A stretch of DNA of 7,186 nt from a virus (Duplodnaviria > Heunggongvirae > Uroviricota > Caudoviricetes), in the IMG/VR virus record IMGVR_UViG_2660238486_000009, one strand, 5' to 3'. The notes beneath the pieces were generated by a model. It worked only from the letters and a program-made list of their open reading frames with translations, was not told where the DNA came from and did no database searches. The translations under genes and the position numbers were made by a program. Below are positions 1 through 6,062 of this stretch, one piece after another; the first letter of the stretch is position 1, and every line of letters starts with the position of its first letter.

Positions 1-204
1 ATGTCCACAGCCCTGACGGGGAACTTCTCTGCGGGAGTGTGCGGGGATAATCAAAAACGATGCACACCGGGTTTTCTCATTTTTCACGAGATGGGAGCGA
101 TTTCCCGCGAAGCCGCCTGTCCGGTGCGGTGGTGGAAGAAACCGGATAAAACAACCGCATTGTGCAAATATCGATCAAATATGGTGCTGCTGTGTGAAAT
201 CTGA
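1..204 (+). CDS. Hypothetical small protein (67 aa, 5 Cys), possibly 5'-truncated by the window edge
   Basis: ORF on the same strand as the downstream packaging genes, ending 56 bp before the putative terS start. It begins at base 1, so an upstream start cannot be excluded. No motif I can assign (no clear HNH, HTH or lysis signature). Confidence 0.3.
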   Translation: MSTALTGNFSAGVCGDNQKRCTPGFLIFHEMGAISREAACPVRWWKKPDKTTALCKYRSNMVLLCEI

Positions 205-259
205 AAAATCACAGCGGTCATTATGCATCAGTTTTTAACACAGGACGTCAGAACGTGAC

Positions 260-1066
260 ATGGCAAAGCTGGACTGGAAAAAGCTGGAGCAGGCATTCCG
301 ACGCGAACATGCCGAAACGGGAATAACATTACTGGACTGGTGCCGGAAGAAAAAGATTAATTACAACACCGCCAGAACCCGTATAAAAATGGGCAAAATC
401 GATCATGAAATTGATCATAAAACCGATCATGAAATCGATCATGACATCTCAGATGAAGAACCCTGCAATGACGCGGGTTCCGGCGATGAAAAATGCGCAA
501 AAAACTCTGAAAAAAACTGCGCAAATTCGGCAGAAACGAAACGGATTCGTGGTTCCCGACTTTTACCACCTTCAAACGCTTTTTCTCAGCGAAACACCCA
601 CGCCGTAAGACACCGTGGATATGCGAAGTATCTTGAGGCAGATAACCTCATGGATGATGCGTCCGACATGGTGCTGTTCGATGAACTGGTGTTCACCCGG
701 GCCCGCGCACTTTCAGTAACTAAGGCACTTAAAGGGATGTTCGCCGACCTGGAAGAGGCAACTGACGTGGAAACCCGTGTTGCTCTTTACGACAAAATAC
801 TCAAAGCTGAACAGGCCCTTGACCGGAATATTGCCCGTATCGAGTCAATTGAACGCTCATTGCTGACGCTGGACGTCCTGGCTGAGACAGCACCAAAACT
901 TCGTGCTGACCGGGAAAGAATCAACGCCGCCAGAGATAAACTCAGAGCTGAAACCGATATTCTGACCAACCAGCGTCGGGGCGTTGTTACGCCTGTCAGT
1001 GACATCGTGTCATCGCTGCATGAAATGAGTAATTCGGGGAGACTGGATGACATTCCGGAAGAATGA
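260..1066 (+). CDS. Putative terminase small subunit (TerS), 268 aa
   Basis: Sits immediately upstream of, and overlaps by 20 nt, the large terminase gene. The N-terminus (ITLLDWCRKKKINYNTARTRI) looks like the helix-turn-helix DNA-binding domain of small terminases. The C-terminal half is predicted helical/coiled-coil (LKAEQALDRNIARIESIERSLL...RERINAARDKLRAE), consistent with an oligomerisation domain. It is longer than typical TerS proteins (about 140-180 aa) because of an acidic His/Asp-repeat linker. Start codon is uncertain (weak SD; an in-frame ATG at 389 is an alternative). Confidence 0.55.
   Translation: MAKLDWKKLEQAFRREHAETGITLLDWCRKKKINYNTARTRIKMGKIDHEIDHKTDHEIDHDISDEEPCNDAGSGDEKCAKNSEKNCANSAETKRIRGSRLLPPSNAFSQRNTHAVRHRGYAKYLEADNLMDDASDMVLFDELVFTRARALSVTKALKGMFADLEEATDVETRVALYDKILKAEQALDRNIARIESIERSLLTLDVLAETAPKLRADRERINAARDKLRAETDILTNQRRGVVTPVSDIVSSLHEMSNSGRLDDIPEE
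401..448 (+). repeat. Four tandem 12-bp repeats, each beginning with GATC (GATCATGAAATT / GATCATAAAACC / GATCATGAAATC / GATCATGACATC)
   Basis: Read directly from the sequence: GATC at 401, 413, 425 and 437 with exact 12-bp periodicity. In the terS frame it encodes IDHE-IDHK-TDHE-IDHD. Confidence 0.9.
486..545 (+). other. Helically phased A-tracts (candidate intrinsically bent DNA) within terS
   Basis: A-runs at 489-493 (A5), 499-504 (A6), 510-516 (A7), 523-525, 534-536 and 539-541, spaced about 10-11 bp apart, with TGCGCAAA occurring twice (494-501 and 518-525). Curvature is inferred from the phasing, not computed. Confidence 0.5.
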
Positions 1067-2753
1067 ACCGCGATGTGATGAGCCGTCAGAAATGACCGAG
1101 GCTGAACAACGTCTGTTCATCATGACTAAACTGAGCAATCCCTGGTGGCGGCTCAATCATCTCTACAAAATACAGAACGAAAAAGGTGAACTGGTCACCT
1201 TCAGAATGCGACCGGCGCAGCGCCAGTTGTTCCGGAGCATGCACAATAAAAATATTATCCTGAAAGCGCGCCAGGTGGGATTTTCCACAGCCATTGATAT
1301 TTATCTTCTCGACCAGGCATTATTCATTCCGCATCTCAAATGCGGGATCGTCGCTCAGGATAAACAGGCTGCCAGTGAAATTTTCCGCACAAAAATTGCT
1401 GTACCGTTTGATCATCTCCCTGACTGGCTGAGAGCCTCATTCACCATCGTTGAACGTCGTAGCGGTGCCAGCGGTGGCTATATCCTGTTTGGTCACGGCT
1501 CGAGTATCCAGGTGGCAACCTCATTCCGTTCAGGTACGGTGCAGCGCCTGCATATCTCAGAGCACGGCAAAATTTGCGCGAAATATCCGGCTAAGGCGAA
1601 AGAACTGCGAACCGGTACGCTTAATGCCGTCTCTGATGAATGCATTATTTTTGATGAGTCCACTGCTGAAGGCGTGGGTGGTGATTTTTACGAGATGAGT
1701 AACCGAGCACAGGAGATCACTGCATCAGGCTTATTGCTGACGGCACAGGATTATAAATTCCATTTTTACGCCTGGTGGCAGGATCCTAAATACAGCGCCA
1801 GAGTGCCGGAAAGCGGGCTGAAGCTGTCACGGGAAAAAATGACGTATTTTTCTGCGGTTGAGAAGGCAATGAACATCACGCTTACTGATGAACAGAAGCA
1901 GTGGTACATCAATAAGGAAACTGAACAGCGTGAGGAAATGAAGCAGGAGTTTCCCTCAACGCCACAGGAGGCGTTTCTGACGTCCGGACGACGTGTGTTC
2001 AGTGCCGAAAGTACGTTGCAGGCAGAATCATTCTGTTCGCCACCGATGATTGTTTATGACATTGAACCTGTTACAGGAGCGAAGACTAAAGCTCAGTCTC
2101 TGCGTGAAGGAAATAAAAACGAGTTGCAGCGGACGCTGATGAATTATCTGCTGGTATGGGAACTGCCGGATCCGGATGAAGAGTATGTTTGTGGGGCAGA
2201 TACTGCCGAAGGGCTGGAGCACGGAGACCGCTCATCGCTGGATGTTGTCAAACGCAGTAATGGCGAGCAGGTGGCTCACTGGTTCGGGCATCTCGATGCT
2301 GAACTTTTTGCTCATCTCATTTCGCAGGTCTGTCGTATGTATAACAACGCGTTTGTGGGGCCGGAGCGTAATAATCACGGACATGCAGTTATCCTGAAAC
2401 TCCGGGAACTCTATCCGACACGTTATATCTACAACGAACAGCATCTTGACCAGGCATATGACGACGATACGCCCCGCCTTGGCTGGCTGACAACCCGTCA
2501 GAGCAAACCTGTTCTGACCGAAGGAATGAAAACGCTTCTGAATAATGGAATATCAGGGATCCGCTGGTCAGGCACATTATCGGAAATGAACACCTACGTT
2601 TATGACGCGAAAGGCTCCATGAATGCACAGGAAGGCTGCTTTGATGATCAGCTCATGAGCTACATGATTGCCCAGGAGATGCGCGCCAGAATGCCGGTGA
2701 GGGTAAAACAGAAAACGGATAAACGCAGAACCACACACTGGATGGCACACTGA
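1047..2753 (+). CDS. Terminase large subunit (TerL), ATPase + nuclease, 568 aa
   Basis: Deviant terminase-type Walker A, KARQVGFST (nt 1263-1289), preceded by a Q-motif-like RPAQRQLF. Walker B plus coupling motif CIIFDEST (Asp-Glu at nt 1653-1658). C-terminal RNaseH-like nuclease signature VCGADTAEG...DRSSLDVV with a distal acidic CFDDQ. SD GGGGAG at 1035-1040, 6 nt before the ATG at 1047. The start could alternatively be the in-frame ATG at 1092. Confidence 0.85.
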   Translation: MTFRKNEPRCDEPSEMTEAEQRLFIMTKLSNPWWRLNHLYKIQNEKGELVTFRMRPAQRQLFRSMHNKNIILKARQVGFSTAIDIYLLDQALFIPHLKCGIVAQDKQAASEIFRTKIAVPFDHLPDWLRASFTIVERRSGASGGYILFGHGSSIQVATSFRSGTVQRLHISEHGKICAKYPAKAKELRTGTLNAVSDECIIFDESTAEGVGGDFYEMSNRAQEITASGLLLTAQDYKFHFYAWWQDPKYSARVPESGLKLSREKMTYFSAVEKAMNITLTDEQKQWYINKETEQREEMKQEFPSTPQEAFLTSGRRVFSAESTLQAESFCSPPMIVYDIEPVTGAKTKAQSLREGNKNELQRTLMNYLLVWELPDPDEEYVCGADTAEGLEHGDRSSLDVVKRSNGEQVAHWFGHLDAELFAHLISQVCRMYNNAFVGPERNNHGHAVILKLRELYPTRYIYNEQHLDQAYDDDTPRLGWLTTRQSKPVLTEGMKTLLNNGISGIRWSGTLSEMNTYVYDAKGSMNAQEGCFDDQLMSYMIAQEMRARMPVRVKQKTDKRRTTHWMAH

Positions 2754-4897
2754 TGAAAAATGAAATTAACACCACAGCGATGAAAAACGATCATGGATCC
2801 ACGCCGCGTTTTTCTCAGCGTCAGTTACTGTCTCTCTGTTCTGATATTGACAGTCAGCCTCTCTGGCGTGATGCCGCAAACAAGGCCTGTGCGTATTATG
2901 ATGGCGACCAGCTGGCACCGGAAGTTATCCAGGTACTGAAAGATCGCGGTCAGCCCATGACCATCCATAACCTCATTGCCCCCACGGTAGATGGTGTACT
3001 GGGAATGGAGGCAAAAACAAGAACGGACCTGATAGTGATGTCAGACGATCCGAACGATGAAACAGAGAAACTGGCAGAGGCCATTAATGCGGAGTTTGCT
3101 GATGCGTGCCGTCTTGGCAACATGAATAAGGCCCGCTCCGATGCCTATGCGGAACAAATCAAGGCGGGCCTCAGTTGGGTGGAGGTCAGACGAAACAGTG
3201 ATCCGTTCGGGCCTGAATTTAAGGTGTCTACTGTCAGCCGGAATGAGGTTTTCTGGGACTGGCTGAGCCGGGAGGCTGATTTAAGTGACTGCCGCTGGCT
3301 GATGCGTCGCCGCTGGATGGATACCGATGAGGCAAAAGCTACATTCCCGGGAATGGCTCAGGTTATCGATTATGCCATTGATGACTGGCGTGGTTTTGTC
3401 GATACCACGGTTACTGAAGGCCAGCCCAGTCCGTTGATGAGTGCATGGGAAGAGTATCAGTCATGGGATCGACAGCAGAACGAATGGCTTCAGCGTGAAC
3501 GCCGTCGTGTGCTGCTTCAGGTGGTTTATTACCGTACATTCGAGCGTCTTCCGGTGATTGAACTCAGTAATGGACGGGTGGTGGCCTTTGATAAAAATAA
3601 TCTGATGCAGGCGGTAGCTGTGGCATCCGGGCGGGTTCAGGTGAAAGTCGGGCGGGTAAGCCGTATTCGTGAAGCCTGGTTTGTCGGGCCGCACTTTATT
3701 GTGGATCGCCCCTGTAGTGCTCCGCAGGGGATGTTTCCGCTGGTTCCTTTCTGGGGATACCGAAAGGATAAAACCGGGGAGCCATACGGGCTAATTTCCC
3801 GCGCCATTCCGGCACAGGATGAGGTGAATTTTCGTCGTATCAAGCTGACCTGGTTGCTTCAGGCCAAACGTGTGATTATGGACGAGGATGCCACCCAGTT
3901 GTCAGACAACGACCTGATGGAGCAGCTCGAACGTCCGGATGGCATTATTAAACTGAATCCGGTCCGAAAAAATCAGAAAAGTGTCGCAGATGTTTTTCGG
4001 GTTGAGCAGGATTTTCAGGTTGCCAGCCAGCAGTTTCAGGTCATGCAGGAATCGGAAAAACTTATCCAGGATACCATGGGAGTGTATTCCGCATTTCTCG
4101 GGCAGGATTCAGGTGCGACGTCAGGCGTGGCTATCAGTAACCTGGTGGAGCAGGGGGCCACAACCCTTGCGGAAATCAACGATAACTACCAGTTTGCCTG
4201 CCAGCAGGTGGGAAGACTGTTGCTGGCTTATCTTCTCGATGACCTGAAAAAACGCCGTAATCATGCAGTGGTGATTAATCGCGATGATCGCCAGCGTCGC
4301 CAGACCATTGTCCTCAATGCTGAAGGTGATAATGGTGAACTGACCAATGATATTTCAAGGTTAAATACACATATTGCGCTGGCGCCTGTTCAGCAGACAC
4401 CGGCGTTTAAGGCACAGCTTGCACAGAGAATGTCAGAGGTTATTCAGGGGCTGCCGCCTCAGGTGCAGGCTGTTGTGCTCGACCTGTGGGTTAATCTTCT
4501 GGATGTGCCGCAGAAACAGGAGTTTGTTGAGCGTATTCGTGCTGCGCTGGGGACGCCAAAATCACCGGATGAAATGACGCCGGAAGAACAGGAAGTAGCG
4601 GCACAACAACAGGCACTTCAGCAACAACAGGCAGAACTCCAGATGCGCGAGATGGCTGGCAGAGTGGCAAAACTGGAAGCTGACGCCGCCAGGGCACATG
4701 CAGCTGCACAACGGGATAATGCCAGTGCACAGCGGGAAGTCGCCCTGACACAGGGGCAGCGTTATGTGGATGCGCTTAACCAGGCACATACGGCAGAAAT
4801 CATTACCGGCGTACAGAATATGGAACAGGAGCAGGACGTTCTTCAGCAACAGATGCTGTATACGTTACAACAGCGGATGAATGAAATGTCGCTCTGA
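2753..4897 (+). CDS. Portal protein, 714 aa, with a long C-terminal Q-rich helical/coiled-coil tail
   Basis: Position directly downstream of TerL with a TGATG stop/start overlap. Length fits P22-like portals (about 700-725 aa). C-terminal roughly 110 residues are Gln/Ala-rich and predicted helical (EEQEVAAQQQALQQQQAELQMREMAGRVAKLEADAARAHAAAQ...), resembling the P22 portal barrel. Call rests on synteny, size and composition, not a homology search. Confidence 0.75.
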   Translation: MKNEINTTAMKNDHGSTPRFSQRQLLSLCSDIDSQPLWRDAANKACAYYDGDQLAPEVIQVLKDRGQPMTIHNLIAPTVDGVLGMEAKTRTDLIVMSDDPNDETEKLAEAINAEFADACRLGNMNKARSDAYAEQIKAGLSWVEVRRNSDPFGPEFKVSTVSRNEVFWDWLSREADLSDCRWLMRRRWMDTDEAKATFPGMAQVIDYAIDDWRGFVDTTVTEGQPSPLMSAWEEYQSWDRQQNEWLQRERRRVLLQVVYYRTFERLPVIELSNGRVVAFDKNNLMQAVAVASGRVQVKVGRVSRIREAWFVGPHFIVDRPCSAPQGMFPLVPFWGYRKDKTGEPYGLISRAIPAQDEVNFRRIKLTWLLQAKRVIMDEDATQLSDNDLMEQLERPDGIIKLNPVRKNQKSVADVFRVEQDFQVASQQFQVMQESEKLIQDTMGVYSAFLGQDSGATSGVAISNLVEQGATTLAEINDNYQFACQQVGRLLLAYLLDDLKKRRNHAVVINRDDRQRRQTIVLNAEGDNGELTNDISRLNTHIALAPVQQTPAFKAQLAQRMSEVIQGLPPQVQAVVLDLWVNLLDVPQKQEFVERIRAALGTPKSPDEMTPEEQEVAAQQQALQQQQAELQMREMAGRVAKLEADAARAHAAAQRDNASAQREVALTQGQRYVDALNQAHTAEIITGVQNMEQEQDVLQQQMLYTLQQRMNEMSL

Positions 4898-5054: not shown

Positions 5055-6062
5055 ATGGATTTTGAATTTACGGGTGAAGAAACCCCGGAACAACTGGAAA
5101 AAATGCTGGAAGGACTTGGGGATGTGGATATTGACAGTCACGCACAGGACGTCGTGACGGAAGATACCACGGAAAAACATGCGGATGAGGAAGCACAGAC
5201 TCAGACGGGCGATAACAATGTGGCACCGACGCCGGATGCCAGTGTGGAGCAGACGCAGGACGTGAAGGAGCCGGAAGCGAAGGGGGTGCTCACCCGCGAC
5301 GGTAAACACGTCATTCCCTATGAAGTCCTTGAGGCTGAACGTTCCGGTAAGCAACGGGCCGAACAGGAAGCCGCACTTCTTCGTGGGCAGATAGCTGAAG
5401 AAAAACGCAGGGTGGAACTGCTGACGTCTCAGATCCACCAGGCCGGTATGAAGCCCACACCGTTACCGGAAAACGAAAAAATTTCTGATGAGCAGATTGC
5501 CCGTATCAGGGAGATGTATCCGGAAATTGGTGACGCGGTGGCTTCGCTCATCCGTAAAAATAACTATCTCCAGTCCCGTGTTCAGCAATCAGCACAGCAG
5601 GCAGAAGGTAATGGTGGTGAGGATTTATCACCGGTTCTTGATGCGATGAATGCCGTGCCGGTGCTGAAAACGTGGCAGGAGTCCGATCCAGATCGCTTCT
5701 CGGTTGCTGTATCCATCGACGGGAAGCTCCAGAATGACCCCGCATGGAAAGACAAAACGCTCACTGAACGTTTCGCTGAAGTGGCCCGTCGTACGCAGGT
5801 TGCTTTCGGTGAAGTCAGTGAGTCGTCTGCTGACAACAAGGCAGACAAAACGGATATCCGGAAAACGGCGGAAGAGAAAGTGAAGACCGCTGAACAGGAG
5901 CAGGCAGTACCTGCTTCCCCGTCAGATTTAGGCACCACGGCTTCCGTCGGAACCGGTGATAATTTTGAACGGTTACTTGGCGCTTCTCATTCAGAGGCAG
6001 AGGCGATTATGCGCGGTATGACGAATGCTGAAATAGACGCGCTTCTGGAGAAGCTCGGGTAA
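5055..6062 (+). CDS. Putative scaffolding protein, 335 aa
   Basis: Located between portal and major capsid genes. Strongly acidic N-terminal region (FTGEETPEQLEKMLEGLGDVDIDSHAQDVVTEDTTEKHADEEAQ), Ala/Glu/Lys-rich predicted helical body, and a C-terminal helix-turn-helix-like segment (RLLGASHSEAEAIMRGMTNAEIDALLEKLG). No Ser/His protease motifs seen. GGAG at 5045-5048, 6 nt before the ATG. Confidence 0.6.
   Translation: MDFEFTGEETPEQLEKMLEGLGDVDIDSHAQDVVTEDTTEKHADEEAQTQTGDNNVAPTPDASVEQTQDVKEPEAKGVLTRDGKHVIPYEVLEAERSGKQRAEQEAALLRGQIAEEKRRVELLTSQIHQAGMKPTPLPENEKISDEQIARIREMYPEIGDAVASLIRKNNYLQSRVQQSAQQAEGNGGEDLSPVLDAMNAVPVLKTWQESDPDRFSVAVSIDGKLQNDPAWKDKTLTERFAEVARRTQVAFGEVSESSADNKADKTDIRKTAEEKVKTAEQEQAVPASPSDLGTTASVGTGDNFERLLGASHSEAEAIMRGMTNAEIDALLEKLG

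What the first reader, a model, noticed from the sequence alone, without database searches (positions are those of the whole stretch)
397..448. Four GATC sites at exact 12-bp spacing in a tandem repeat inside the small terminase gene
Four Dam-methylatable GATC motifs within 40 bp is far above chance (one GATC expected per 256 bp). The site lies inside terS, where headful-packaging phages such as P22 and Sf6 carry their pac site. Possible roles: part of pac, a Dam/SeqA-sensitive switch that couples packaging or late expression to replication state, or a slippage-prone repeat that varies the His/Asp linker of TerS. The encoded (I/T)DH(E/K/D) x4 repeat could also bind metal ions.
Basis: partly seen in the sequence, partly recalled or inferred. 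Interest (0 to 1): 0.55.

Follow-up and report, generated by a model that had tools for sequence, protein, structure and literature searches.

The report
Probable packaging-start site of Stx phage
The four evenly spaced GATC sites inside the small-terminase gene of this Shiga-toxin phage (933W type) are most likely where the phage's own terminase binds to start DNA packaging, as in phage P1, whose packaging is controlled by Dam methylation.

Summary
GATC occurs at 401, 413, 425 and 437, inside a 12-bp tandem repeat (396-448, 4.4 copies) in terS (260-1066) of a 933W/Sp5-type Stx phage.

What it is: each unit holds the hexamer YGATCA, which is the phage P1 pac hexamer TGATC(A/G). The TerS N-terminal helix-turn-helix is homologous to that of P1 PacA (hhalign 95%, E 2.8e-8). 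In both families a hexamer array sits just downstream of the HTH-coding part.

Family evidence from 37 related terS genes read at DNA level:
- 36 of them carry 3-7 copies of a short motif at this place.
- The common motif is TGCGCA, and it is written in all three reading frames, so the DNA is selected, not the peptide.
- The motif class (TGCGCA, TTCGCA, YGATCA, or GTACGCA with a different N-terminal domain) changes together with the HTH recognition helix.

The repeat encodes a predicted disordered linker. Copy number varies from 1 to 7; in the phage collection 161 records fit the 4-copy allele and 59 the 3-copy allele. 933W is an experimentally shown generalized transducer, so it packages by headfuls, but I found no mapped pac site.

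Best reading: this is the TerS recognition array of pac. Dam control is inferred from P1 only. No second GATC cluster and no IHF site were found, so I file it as a variant of the P1 type. The metal-binding idea is not supported.

The parts
260..1066 (+). terS, small terminase subunit, 268 aa (933W L0112)
   Evidence: ORF. 100% identical to annotated terS of many Stx phages. PHROG 370 at 4.8e-125.
275..382 (+). Coding region of the N-terminal three-helix HTH domain: helices aa 6-20, 24-31 and 35-41. The presumed recognition helix YNTARTR is encoded at 362-382.
   Evidence: AlphaFold2 model, block-mean pLDDT 76-88 over aa 1-40. hhalign against the P1 PacA family: 95.2%, E 2.8e-8 over aa 5-47. 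Weak reciprocal PHROG hits. The P1 PacA N-terminus gives sub-threshold Pfam HTH_23/HTH_28 hits.
396..448 (.). The finding: a 12-bp tandem array holding four YGATCA hexamers at 400-405 (CGATCA), 412-417 (TGATCA), 424-429 (CGATCA) and 436-441 (CGATCA). Each contains one Dam site. Proposed TerS-binding array of pac.
   Evidence: The hexamer is the P1 pac TGATC(A/G) hexamer read on either strand. Class-specific hexamers are confined to +130..+305 of terS in 33 related loci.
395..583 (+). Coding region of the predicted disordered linker, aa 46-108. It carries the GATC array and the two TGCGCA units.
   Evidence: AlphaFold2 pLDDT below 50 for aa 46-108. The peptide sequence is not conserved across the family.
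385..397 (.). Degenerate copy of the family's ancestral unit, AAAAATGgGCAAA. The equivalent CTGCGCAAA is intact in the Salmonella GATC-type relatives and in the enterobacterial TGCGCA-type relatives (E. coli, Salmonella, Citrobacter and one Yersinia prophage).
   Evidence: the repeat finder family D2. Codon-level comparison.
489..501 (.). Unit AAAAATGCGCAAA, with TGCGCA at 494-499. It is a possible right-hand partner site or a relic.
   Evidence: TGCGCA is the array motif of most family members.
513..525 (.). Unit AAAACTGCGCAAA, with TGCGCA at 518-523. Second copy of the possible right-hand partner.
172..178 (.). Isolated CGATCAA hexamer 88 bp upstream of the terS start, in the same AAAT-rich context as the array units. 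It is present in the 7-copy relative and absent in the Salmonella relatives, so whether it belongs to the site is uncertain.
1047..2753 (+). terL, large terminase subunit. It overlaps terS by 20 nt. It is the nuclease/ATPase that TerS would recruit to the site.
   Evidence: ORF. PHROG 2 at 1.2e-53. The nearest solved relative is T4 gp17, 4.3e-7. Annotated as 'T4-like headful' in a relative's record. No significant similarity to P1 PacB.
2753..4897 (+). Portal protein, P22-like. Context for a headful packaging machine.
   Evidence: Pfam P22_portal at 8.1e-127.

Best explanation
The array is the terminase-recognition part of the phage's pac site, the place where headful DNA packaging starts.

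Proposed mechanism:
1. TerS is made from this same gene. It has an N-terminal three-helix HTH domain, then a disordered linker, then a long helical oligomerisation domain.
2. Several HTH domains of one TerS oligomer each bind one YGATCA hexamer. The hexamers sit every 12 bp (about one helical turn), each preceded by an A-tract, so the DNA can be bent or wrapped on the oligomer.
3. The bound TerS recruits TerL (T4 gp17-like). TerL cuts nearby and starts a series of roughly 61-kb headfuls.
4. Because every hexamer contains GATC, binding or cutting is probably sensitive to Dam methylation, as at P1 pac. That would tie the start of packaging to the replication and methylation state of the DNA.
5. 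The DNA signal is written into codons of a disordered linker. This tolerates almost any peptide and in-frame gain or loss of 12-bp units.

Shown here: the anatomy, the homology to P1 PacA, the family-wide motif arrays written in three reading frames, the motif/helix co-variation, and the copy-number polymorphism. Shown in the literature: 933W packages by headfuls. Inferred: TerS binding to the hexamers, the position of the cut, and any Dam or SeqA control.
For: (a) Same element as P1 pac. The units read CGATCA/TGATCA, that is TGATC(G/A). P1 pac is a 161-bp site inside pacA with seven TGATCA/G Dam-site hexamers, an IHF site and a central cut (PMC10028697).

(b) Homologous reader. hhalign of the 933W TerS family against the PacA family gives 95.2%, E 2.8e-8 over the N-terminal 43 residues. 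PHROG hits are reciprocal. In both families the hexamers start just downstream of the HTH-coding part. PacA relatives down to 29% identity keep TGATCA clusters in two or three reading frames.

(c) Family-wide DNA-level selection. In 24 related prophage loci the same place (codons 37-110) holds 4-7 GCGCAR sites, against 0.6-2.0 expected under synonymous resampling; p was at most 0.004 in all but one locus. The 157 sites fall in frames 0, 1 and 2 as 113, 13 and 31, with consensus AAAsTGCGCAA. Within -1000..+2000 of the start codon the class hexamer is almost confined to +130..+305.

(d) Motif and recognition helix change together. ARR(Y/H)(I/L)K goes with TGCGCA. AKR(Y/H)IT goes with TTCGCA. ART(R/Q)IK goes with YGATCA, in both an E. 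coli and a Salmonella background. A different N-terminal domain goes with GTACGCA. At the protein level the partition is complete in 106 family members. The changed residues T40 and R41 lie in predicted helix 3.

(e) The phage needs a pac site. 933W performs efficient generalized transduction of about genome-sized DNA, and its virion DNA was inferred to be terminally redundant (PMC3752737). TerL is T4 gp17-like and the portal is P22-like. GenBank notes call relatives circularly permuted.

(f) Module behaviour. Mosaic relatives keep the HTH, the GATC array and the TGCGCA pair together while the downstream terS sequence is exchanged (P0016 and P0024; L158).

(g) A Dam-type methyltransferase gene (L0094) is present in 933W.
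Against: - No packaged DNA end has been mapped at or near this site. PhageTerm on a phage identical over window 1-1100 gave 'Mu-like', that is no defined terminus (PMC7946995).
- For this gene alone, GATC is not significantly more frequent than its peptide would give. The repeat units are copies of one another, not independent observations.
- The bipartite 4+3 GATC layout of P1 is absent. The nearest other GATC sites are 228 bp upstream and about 900 bp downstream.
- No IHF consensus lies near the array.
- The helix-to-motif rule is not universal. P1 PacA and a set of IMG/VR TerS genes have an ARRY helix yet use TGATCA.
- The HTH-coding part and the array are only about 15 bp apart, so part of their co-variation could be linkage.
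- Alleles with 1 or 2 units exist. These come from short contigs of unknown viability.
- A relative with TGCGCA arrays also encodes an adenine methyltransferase, so carrying a methylase does not track the GATC type.
Confidence: 0.65

Rival explanations
1. The repeat is just a slippage-prone stretch in a disordered, unconstrained linker of TerS. The GATC sites are a by-product of Asp-His codons (GAT-CAT), and the array has no role as a DNA site.
For: The encoded segment is predicted disordered. Copy number varies from 1 to 7 in frame. Given the peptide, GATCA is not significantly enriched in the window (observed 4, expected 2.05, p about 0.1). The units are duplicates of one another.
Against: Almost every relative has a motif array at the same place although the peptides differ. 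The common TGCGCA motif is written in three reading frames and is 3-10 times commoner than synonymous resampling predicts. The motif class tracks the HTH helix. The sister family is P1 PacA, where these same hexamers are the experimentally defined pac site. Slippage explains the variation in copy number, not the presence of the motif.
Confidence: 0.15
2. The array is a Dam/SeqA-responsive element that acts on something other than packaging recognition. For example, hemimethylated GATCs could be sequestered by SeqA to delay late-gene transcription through terS, or to affect replication or recombination.
For: Four GATC sites 12 bp apart lie roughly on one face of the helix. From my recollection of work by Brendler and Austin, this suits cooperative SeqA binding to hemimethylated DNA. 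The phage encodes a putative Dam. Host Dam is reported to matter for 933W lysogeny (cited in PMC3342100).
Against: Relatives with the same gene layout use non-GATC motifs (TGCGCA, TTCGCA, GTACGCA) at the same position, so the conserved feature is an array read by the TerS domain, not methylation as such. No promoter-like site lies in 1-1200. The reported Dam effect on lysogeny is not tied to this locus.
Confidence: 0.07
3. The (I/T)DH(E/K/D) peptide repeat is the functional unit, for example a metal-binding His/Asp motif in TerS.
For: The repeat contains four His and five Asp residues in 17 residues.
Against: Homologues encode unrelated peptides at this position (SAQK, NSQI, GTQ, SDQK), and functional-looking alleles have 3 to 7 units. 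The segment is modelled as disordered. Nothing in the family conserves His there.
Confidence: 0.03
4. The array mainly marks a recombination or insertion hot spot, that is a boundary for module exchange.
For: An IS3-family element sits 3 bp beyond the array in a set of O157 Stx2a prophages. Mosaic joints occur within terS.
Against: The mosaic joints lie downstream of the TGCGCA pair, after about aa 95, not at the array. One IS lineage is a single event. This reading does not explain the three-frame motif conservation.
Confidence: 0.05

Closest known systems
Phage P1 pac site with PacA/PacB pacase (Sternberg and Coulby; Skorupski et al.; summarised in PMC10028697)
   Same: The hexamer is the same, TGATC(A/G), and carries a Dam site. 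It lies inside the small-subunit gene, just downstream of the region coding a homologous N-terminal HTH (hhalign 95%). It is translated as xDH/xDQ codons in both. Spacings of 12 bp also occur between some P1-family hexamers. Both phages are headful packagers and generalized transducers and carry their own adenine methyltransferase gene (for P1 this is from my own knowledge).
   Different: P1 has two GATC clusters (4 + 3) with irregular spacing around an IHF site and the cut. Here there is one strictly periodic cluster of 4 (3-7 in alleles), no IHF match, and two TGCGCA units where a right-hand cluster would be. Outside the HTH, TerS (268 aa) is unrelated to PacA (397 aa). TerL is T4 gp17-like and shows no significant similarity to PacB. 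Methylation dependence is untested here.
TGCGCA-type arrays in the same TerS family (PHROG 370), found in prophages of Escherichia, Salmonella, Citrobacter, Serratia, Yersinia, Brenneria and Aeromonas. As far as I could find these are undescribed.
   Same: The gene, the position (+130..+305), the A-rich context before the hexamer and the palindromic TGNNCA core are the same. The window still keeps two TGCGCA units and one decayed copy.
   Different: The central dinucleotide is CG instead of AT, so there is no Dam site. Spacing is variable (mostly 9-14 bp) and the motif is written in three frames. The recognition helix reads ARR(Y/H)(I/L)K instead of ARTRIK.
pac sites inside terS of P22, Sf6 and SPP1 (generic class; from my own knowledge)
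   Same: The packaging recognition site is embedded in the small-terminase gene of a headful phage.
   Different: P22 uses a single asymmetric site of about 22 bp. SPP1 uses pacL/pacR boxes around pacC. Neither uses Dam-site hexamers, and their TerS proteins are not detectably related to this one (no Pfam or PDB sequence match).

Membership tests
P1-type pac site | Lies inside the small terminase (pacA-like) gene, downstream of the part that codes the DNA-binding domain | tested here: met
   The array is at codons 46-62 of terS, and the HTH ends at about aa 41-45. P1 hexamers lie at pacA nt 194-233 and 324-380.
P1-type pac site | The small subunit has a PacA-type N-terminal HTH | tested here: met
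   hhalign 95.2%, E 2.8e-8 over aa 5-47 against 4-46. Reciprocal PHROG hits at 3.1e-5 and 1.9e-4.
P1-type pac site | Repeated hexamer TGATC(A/G) containing a Dam site | tested here: met
   CGATCA, TGATCA, CGATCA, CGATCA at 400-441. CGATCA reads TGATCG on the other strand.
P1-type pac site | Two hexamer clusters (4 + 3) flanking a central region of about 90 bp where cleavage occurs | tested here: not met
   There is only one GATC cluster. The nearest other GATC sites are at 173 and 1346. Two TGCGCA units at 494-523 might substitute, but they are not GATC hexamers.
P1-type pac site | IHF binding site between the clusters | tested here: not met
   No match to WATCAANNNNTTR with up to 1 mismatch anywhere in 1-1244. 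The consensus scan is crude, and other bending proteins are not excluded.
P1-type pac site | Cleavage requires full Dam methylation; hemimethylated sites are bound but not cut | not testable with these tools
   This needs packaging or cleavage assays in dam+ and dam- backgrounds. Only the presence of a phage methylase gene was seen.
P1-type pac site | The partner large subunit is PacB-like | tested here: not met
   BLASTP of TerL against PacB gave a best E of 3.7. TerL's nearest solved relative is T4 gp17.
Headful (pac) packaging phage | Terminally redundant, circularly permuted virion DNA and generalized transduction | tested here: met
   From the literature, not computed here: 933W transduces chromosomal markers with about 61-kb headfuls, and terminal redundancy was inferred (PMC3752737). 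A 'circularly permutated' note appears in GenBank records of relatives. One paper assumes cos packaging without data (PMC7566468).
Headful (pac) packaging phage | Mapped pac cleavage or first-headful start | not testable with these tools
   No reads or end-mapping data are available. PhageTerm was reported as 'Mu-like' for an identical phage. GenBank record starts are arbitrary: an XhoI site or the terL start.
Small terminase (TerS) architecture | N-terminal DNA-binding domain, helical oligomerisation core, gene directly upstream of terL | tested here: met
   AlphaFold2 gives an HTH at aa 6-41, disorder at 46-108 and a helical hairpin at 130-238. terS overlaps terL by 20 nt. PHROG 370. The oligomeric state is unknown, and Foldseek against the PDB was uninformative.
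SeqA-binding GATC cluster | Two or more GATC sites within about 30 bp on one helical face, bound when hemimethylated | tested here: inconclusive
   The spacing criterion is met (12 bp, four sites). Binding and methylation state cannot be tested. The spacing rule is recalled from the literature and was not checked here.
Phase-variable simple-sequence contingency locus | Changes in repeat number switch the reading frame or promoter spacing on and off | tested here: not met
   The unit is 12 bp, which is 4 codons. All alleles with 1-7 units stay in frame.

The most novel reading that the evidence does not exclude
A large family of small terminases carries its own recognition site as an array of palindromic TGNNCA hexamers written into the codons of a disordered linker, directly behind the HTH that reads them. 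Specificity has been re-set several times by paired changes in the recognition helix and the hexamer: TGCGCA, TTCGCA, and GTACGCA with a swapped domain. In the 933W lineage of Shiga-toxin phages the switch to GATCA placed the start of packaging under Dam (and possibly SeqA) epigenetic control, as in P1. The natural 3-7 copy polymorphism then tunes how often pac is used, and so tunes phage yield and the frequency of generalized or lateral transduction of host genes from EHEC.
Probability: 0.25. Interest if true: 0.7.

Novelty: new variant of a known kind. Interest (0 to 1): 0.55.

Why it matters
933W/Sp5-type phages carry the Shiga toxin genes of E. coli O157:H7 and spread them. Their packaging strategy is described inconsistently. 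One paper shows a generalized transducer with inferred terminal redundancy (PMC3752737). Another assumes a 'cos phage' (PMC7566468). A PhageTerm run reported 'Mu-like' (PMC7946995). I found no mapped pac site.

A concrete candidate of about 140 bp (385-525) makes several questions directly testable:
- where packaging starts;
- whether host or phage Dam gates it;
- why these phages package plasmid and chromosomal DNA;
- whether the common 3-copy and 4-copy alleles differ in yield or transduction.

More generally, the family offers natural matched pairs of HTH variant and hexamer variant for studying how small terminases recognise DNA. It is also a clear example of a DNA signal embedded in a disordered protein-coding segment.

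Tried and rejected
- Pfam and NCBIfam gave nothing for TerS. For TerL, Pfam gave only a chance-level match (FERM_F1, E 0.14) and NCBIfam nothing.
- A PDB sequence search for TerS gave only chance hits.
- Foldseek of the AlphaFold2 model against the PDB returned generic coiled coils. The model is confident only for the HTH and the helical hairpin (pTM 0.40).
- A scan for the IHF consensus found nothing near the site.
- The promoter/terminator scan of 1-1200 found no promoter-like site.
- Rfam found no family in the window.
- Folding 385-530 as single-stranded DNA gave z = -2.75, explained by the palindromic units; I did not pursue it.
- I tested whether carrying a phage adenine methylase tracks the GATC type. 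It does not: PhiR12_3 (TGCGCA type) also has one.
- I looked for informative genome ends in GenBank records. They start at an XhoI site or at terL by convention.
Only 8 of 120 loci were TerS/PacA-like.
- A simple residue-to-base code (RRY = CG, RT(R/Q) = AT) is rejected as universal. P1 PacA and the L081-type TerS have ARRY with TGATCA.
- Three papers were not held: Plunkett 1999, Murphy 2008, and Sternberg and Coulby 1990.

Full report
**What the window is.** The 7186-bp window is the start of the late morphogenesis region of a short-tailed 933W/Sp5-type Shiga-toxin phage (Sepvirinae). Bases 1-1100 are 100% identical to many Stx phages and 99.9% identical to 933W and VT2-Sakai. The genes are:
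- the 3' end of a small ORF (1-204);
- terS (260-1066, 268 aa);
- terL (1047-2753), which overlaps terS by 20 nt;
- a P22-like portal (2753-4897; Pfam at 8e-127);
- an ORF of unknown function (5055-6062);
- the major capsid gene (6086 onward).

**The observation.** GATC lies at 401, 413, 425 and 437. Tandem Repeats Finder reports one array in the window: 396-448, period 12, 4.4 copies. It encodes IDHE-IDHK-TDHE-IDHD. The window as a whole is not GATC-rich (28 sites against 34.8 expected). Four sites in 40 bp were reached in 26 of 2000 dinucleotide shuffles. The exact spacing comes from tandem duplication. Given the peptide, GATC is not significantly enriched in this gene alone (observed 4 GATCA, expected 2.05, p about 0.1). 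The description is correct, but the count by itself proves little.

**The hexamer is the P1 pac hexamer.** With one base on each side the units read CGATCA, TGATCA, CGATCA, CGATCA, that is TGATC(G/A). In P1 the pac site is a 161-bp stretch inside pacA. It has seven TGATCA/G hexamers (four on one side, three on the other), an IHF site and a central cut, and its processing is regulated by adenine methylation (annotation and sequence; PMC10028697, citing Sternberg and Coulby and Skorupski et al.). P1 PacA translates its hexamers as IDH, NDQ, GDH and DDH, much as here.

**The reader domain is homologous.** Pairwise BLAST between TerS and PacA is weak (E 0.009, N-terminus only). PHROG hits are reciprocal. 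A profile-profile comparison of 67 TerS relatives against 21 PacA relatives gives 95.2% probability and E 2.8e-8 over residues 5-47 against 4-46. An AlphaFold2 model built on the alignment shows three helices (aa 6-20, 24-31, 35-41), then a segment with pLDDT below 50 (aa 46-108), then a long helical hairpin (aa 130-238). The array therefore lies in codons of a disordered linker directly behind an HTH. The rest of TerS is unrelated to PacA. TerL is T4 gp17-like and is not detectably similar to PacB. What the two systems share is the HTH and the hexamers.

**The family-wide pattern.** I read the 5' part of terS at codon level in these relatives:
- 28 prophage loci from genomes;
- four loci fetched by protein: Salmonella L038, L039 and L041, and the E. 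coli 7-copy allele L043;
- PhiR12_3;
- three Klebsiella phages and one Providencia phage.

All but the most distant one (Pseudoalteromonas) have 3-7 copies of a short motif at the same position.

In 24 loci the motif is TGCGCA, with consensus AAAsTGCGCAA. It is written in all three reading frames: nnT-GCG-CAA (xAQ), GTG-CGC-AAA (VRK) and TGC-GCA-AAx (CAK). The 157 sites fall in frames 0, 1 and 2 as 113, 13 and 31. Under synonymous resampling 0.6-2.0 sites are expected per gene against 4-7 seen, with p at most 0.004 in all but one locus. Within 3 kb around the start codon the hexamer is almost confined to +130..+305. This is selection on DNA, not on the peptide.

**Motif and helix change together.**
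- Loci with helix ARR(Y/H)(I/L)K have TGCGCA.
- The Pectobacterium/Brenneria clade has AKRYIT and TTCGCA.
- The 933W type (ARTRIK) and a Salmonella group (ARTQIK, in an otherwise Salmonella-type TerS) have YGATCA at exactly 12-bp spacing.
- Klebsiella phages with a different N-terminal domain have GTACGCA in two frames.

Across 106 family proteins the partition of helix class against linker-repeat class is complete. TGCGCA and TGATCA differ only in the central dinucleotide. The window still has two TGCGCA units (494-499, 518-523) and a decayed one (TGgGCA, 390-395) flanking the GATC array.

Two caveats apply. The HTH-coding part and the array are adjacent, so linkage contributes to their co-variation. 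The rule is also not universal: P1 PacA and a group of IMG/VR TerS genes combine an ARRY helix with TGATCA. All GATC-type members I saw share N-T at the start of helix 3.

**Polymorphism.** Alleles with 1, 2, 3, 4, 5 and 7 units exist. In the phage collection 161 records match as the 4-copy allele and 59 match the 3-copy query at 99% identity or more. All alleles stay in frame.

**Does the phage need a pac site?** Yes. 933W transduces chromosomal markers efficiently, with roughly genome-sized DNA, and its virion DNA was inferred to be terminally redundant (PMC3752737). Relatives are annotated as circularly permuted. No end mapping exists that I could find. PhageTerm gave 'Mu-like' for a phage identical over window 1-1100 (PMC7946995). 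One paper simply assumes cos packaging (PMC7566468).

**Conclusion.** The array is most likely the TerS-recognition part of pac in a headful Stx phage, a variant of the P1 design (confidence 0.65). Steps shown: the anatomy, the homology, the family-wide DNA-level selection, the co-variation and the polymorphism. Steps inferred: TerS binding, the cut position and the direction of packaging. Dam (or SeqA) control follows only from the P1 analogy and from the presence of GATC in every unit. The phage has a putative Dam gene, but so does a relative of the TGCGCA type.

It is not a strict member of the P1 type. There is no second GATC cluster, no IHF consensus and no PacB-like partner.

Rivals: a neutral slippage-prone linker (0.15), a Dam/SeqA element unrelated to packaging (0.07), a recombination hot spot (0.05) and a metal-binding peptide (0.03).

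Noticed in passing
L004 (LC727869.1) 2665-3980; junction equivalent to window ~451/452: In a set of O157 Stx2a prophages, an IS3-family element (108-aa and 296-aa transposase ORFs; its end TGAACCGCCCCGGG looks IS629-like from memory) is inserted 3 bp beyond the GATC array, which there has 3 units. The rest of terS and the downstream morphogenesis genes are replaced or deleted, so these prophages should be packaging-defective.
   Followed up: partly
window 494-499 and 518-523; decayed copy at 390-395: Two intact TGCGCA units and one decayed unit of the family's common motif flank the GATC array. The 933W site therefore looks like a hybrid of two motif classes. Whether the TGCGCA pair acts as a right-hand half-site is open.
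   Followed up: partly
window 172-178: An isolated CGATCAA hexamer in the same A/T-rich context lies 88 bp upstream of the terS start, next to TGTGCAAAT (one mismatch from TGCGCAAAT). It is conserved in the 7-copy E. coli relative but absent in the Salmonella GATC-type loci. Several Aeromonas loci have a single TGCGCA at about -255.
   Followed up: partly
P0067-P0073, P0100; L006-L008 (Klebsiella phages): The same TerS C-terminal domain is fused to unrelated N-terminal DNA-binding domains (MNQSEE..., MDMEAL..., MAKPDWEAIESAYRAGV...). The Klebsiella version has its own array, GTACGCA x5-7. This is modular exchange of the reader domain together with its site.
   Followed up: partly
L081, L164, L168, L130, L068, L115 (IMG/VR contigs): These are further TerS/PacA-like genes with GATC hexamer arrays. 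L115 has five GATC at 12-bp spacing. The L081 type combines a 933W-family C-terminus with a P1-like NTARRYLQ helix and has GATC hexamers at aa ~78-117. They look like intermediates between the two families.
   Followed up: no
window 1047-1066: terS and terL overlap by 20 nt in different frames. This suggests translational coupling of the two terminase subunits.
   Followed up: no
literature (PMC7566468 vs PMC3752737 vs PMC7946995): Published statements on 933W packaging conflict: 'cos phage', generalized transducer with terminal redundancy, and PhageTerm 'Mu-like'. The 'Mu-like' call (host DNA at read termini) could reflect packaging from the unexcised prophage (lateral transduction).
   Followed up: partly
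window 1499-1504: The GenBank records of Stx2 converting phages I and II and of the Stx1 converting phage all begin at a CTCGAG (XhoI) site inside terL. Their coordinate origin is a cloning artefact, not a genome end.
   Followed up: yes
window 4560-4897 (portal C-terminus): The portal ends in a long Gln/Ala/Glu-rich, probably helical tail (…QQQALQQQQAELQMREMAGRVAKLEADAARAHAAAQ…). It is reminiscent of the P22 portal barrel.
   Followed up: no
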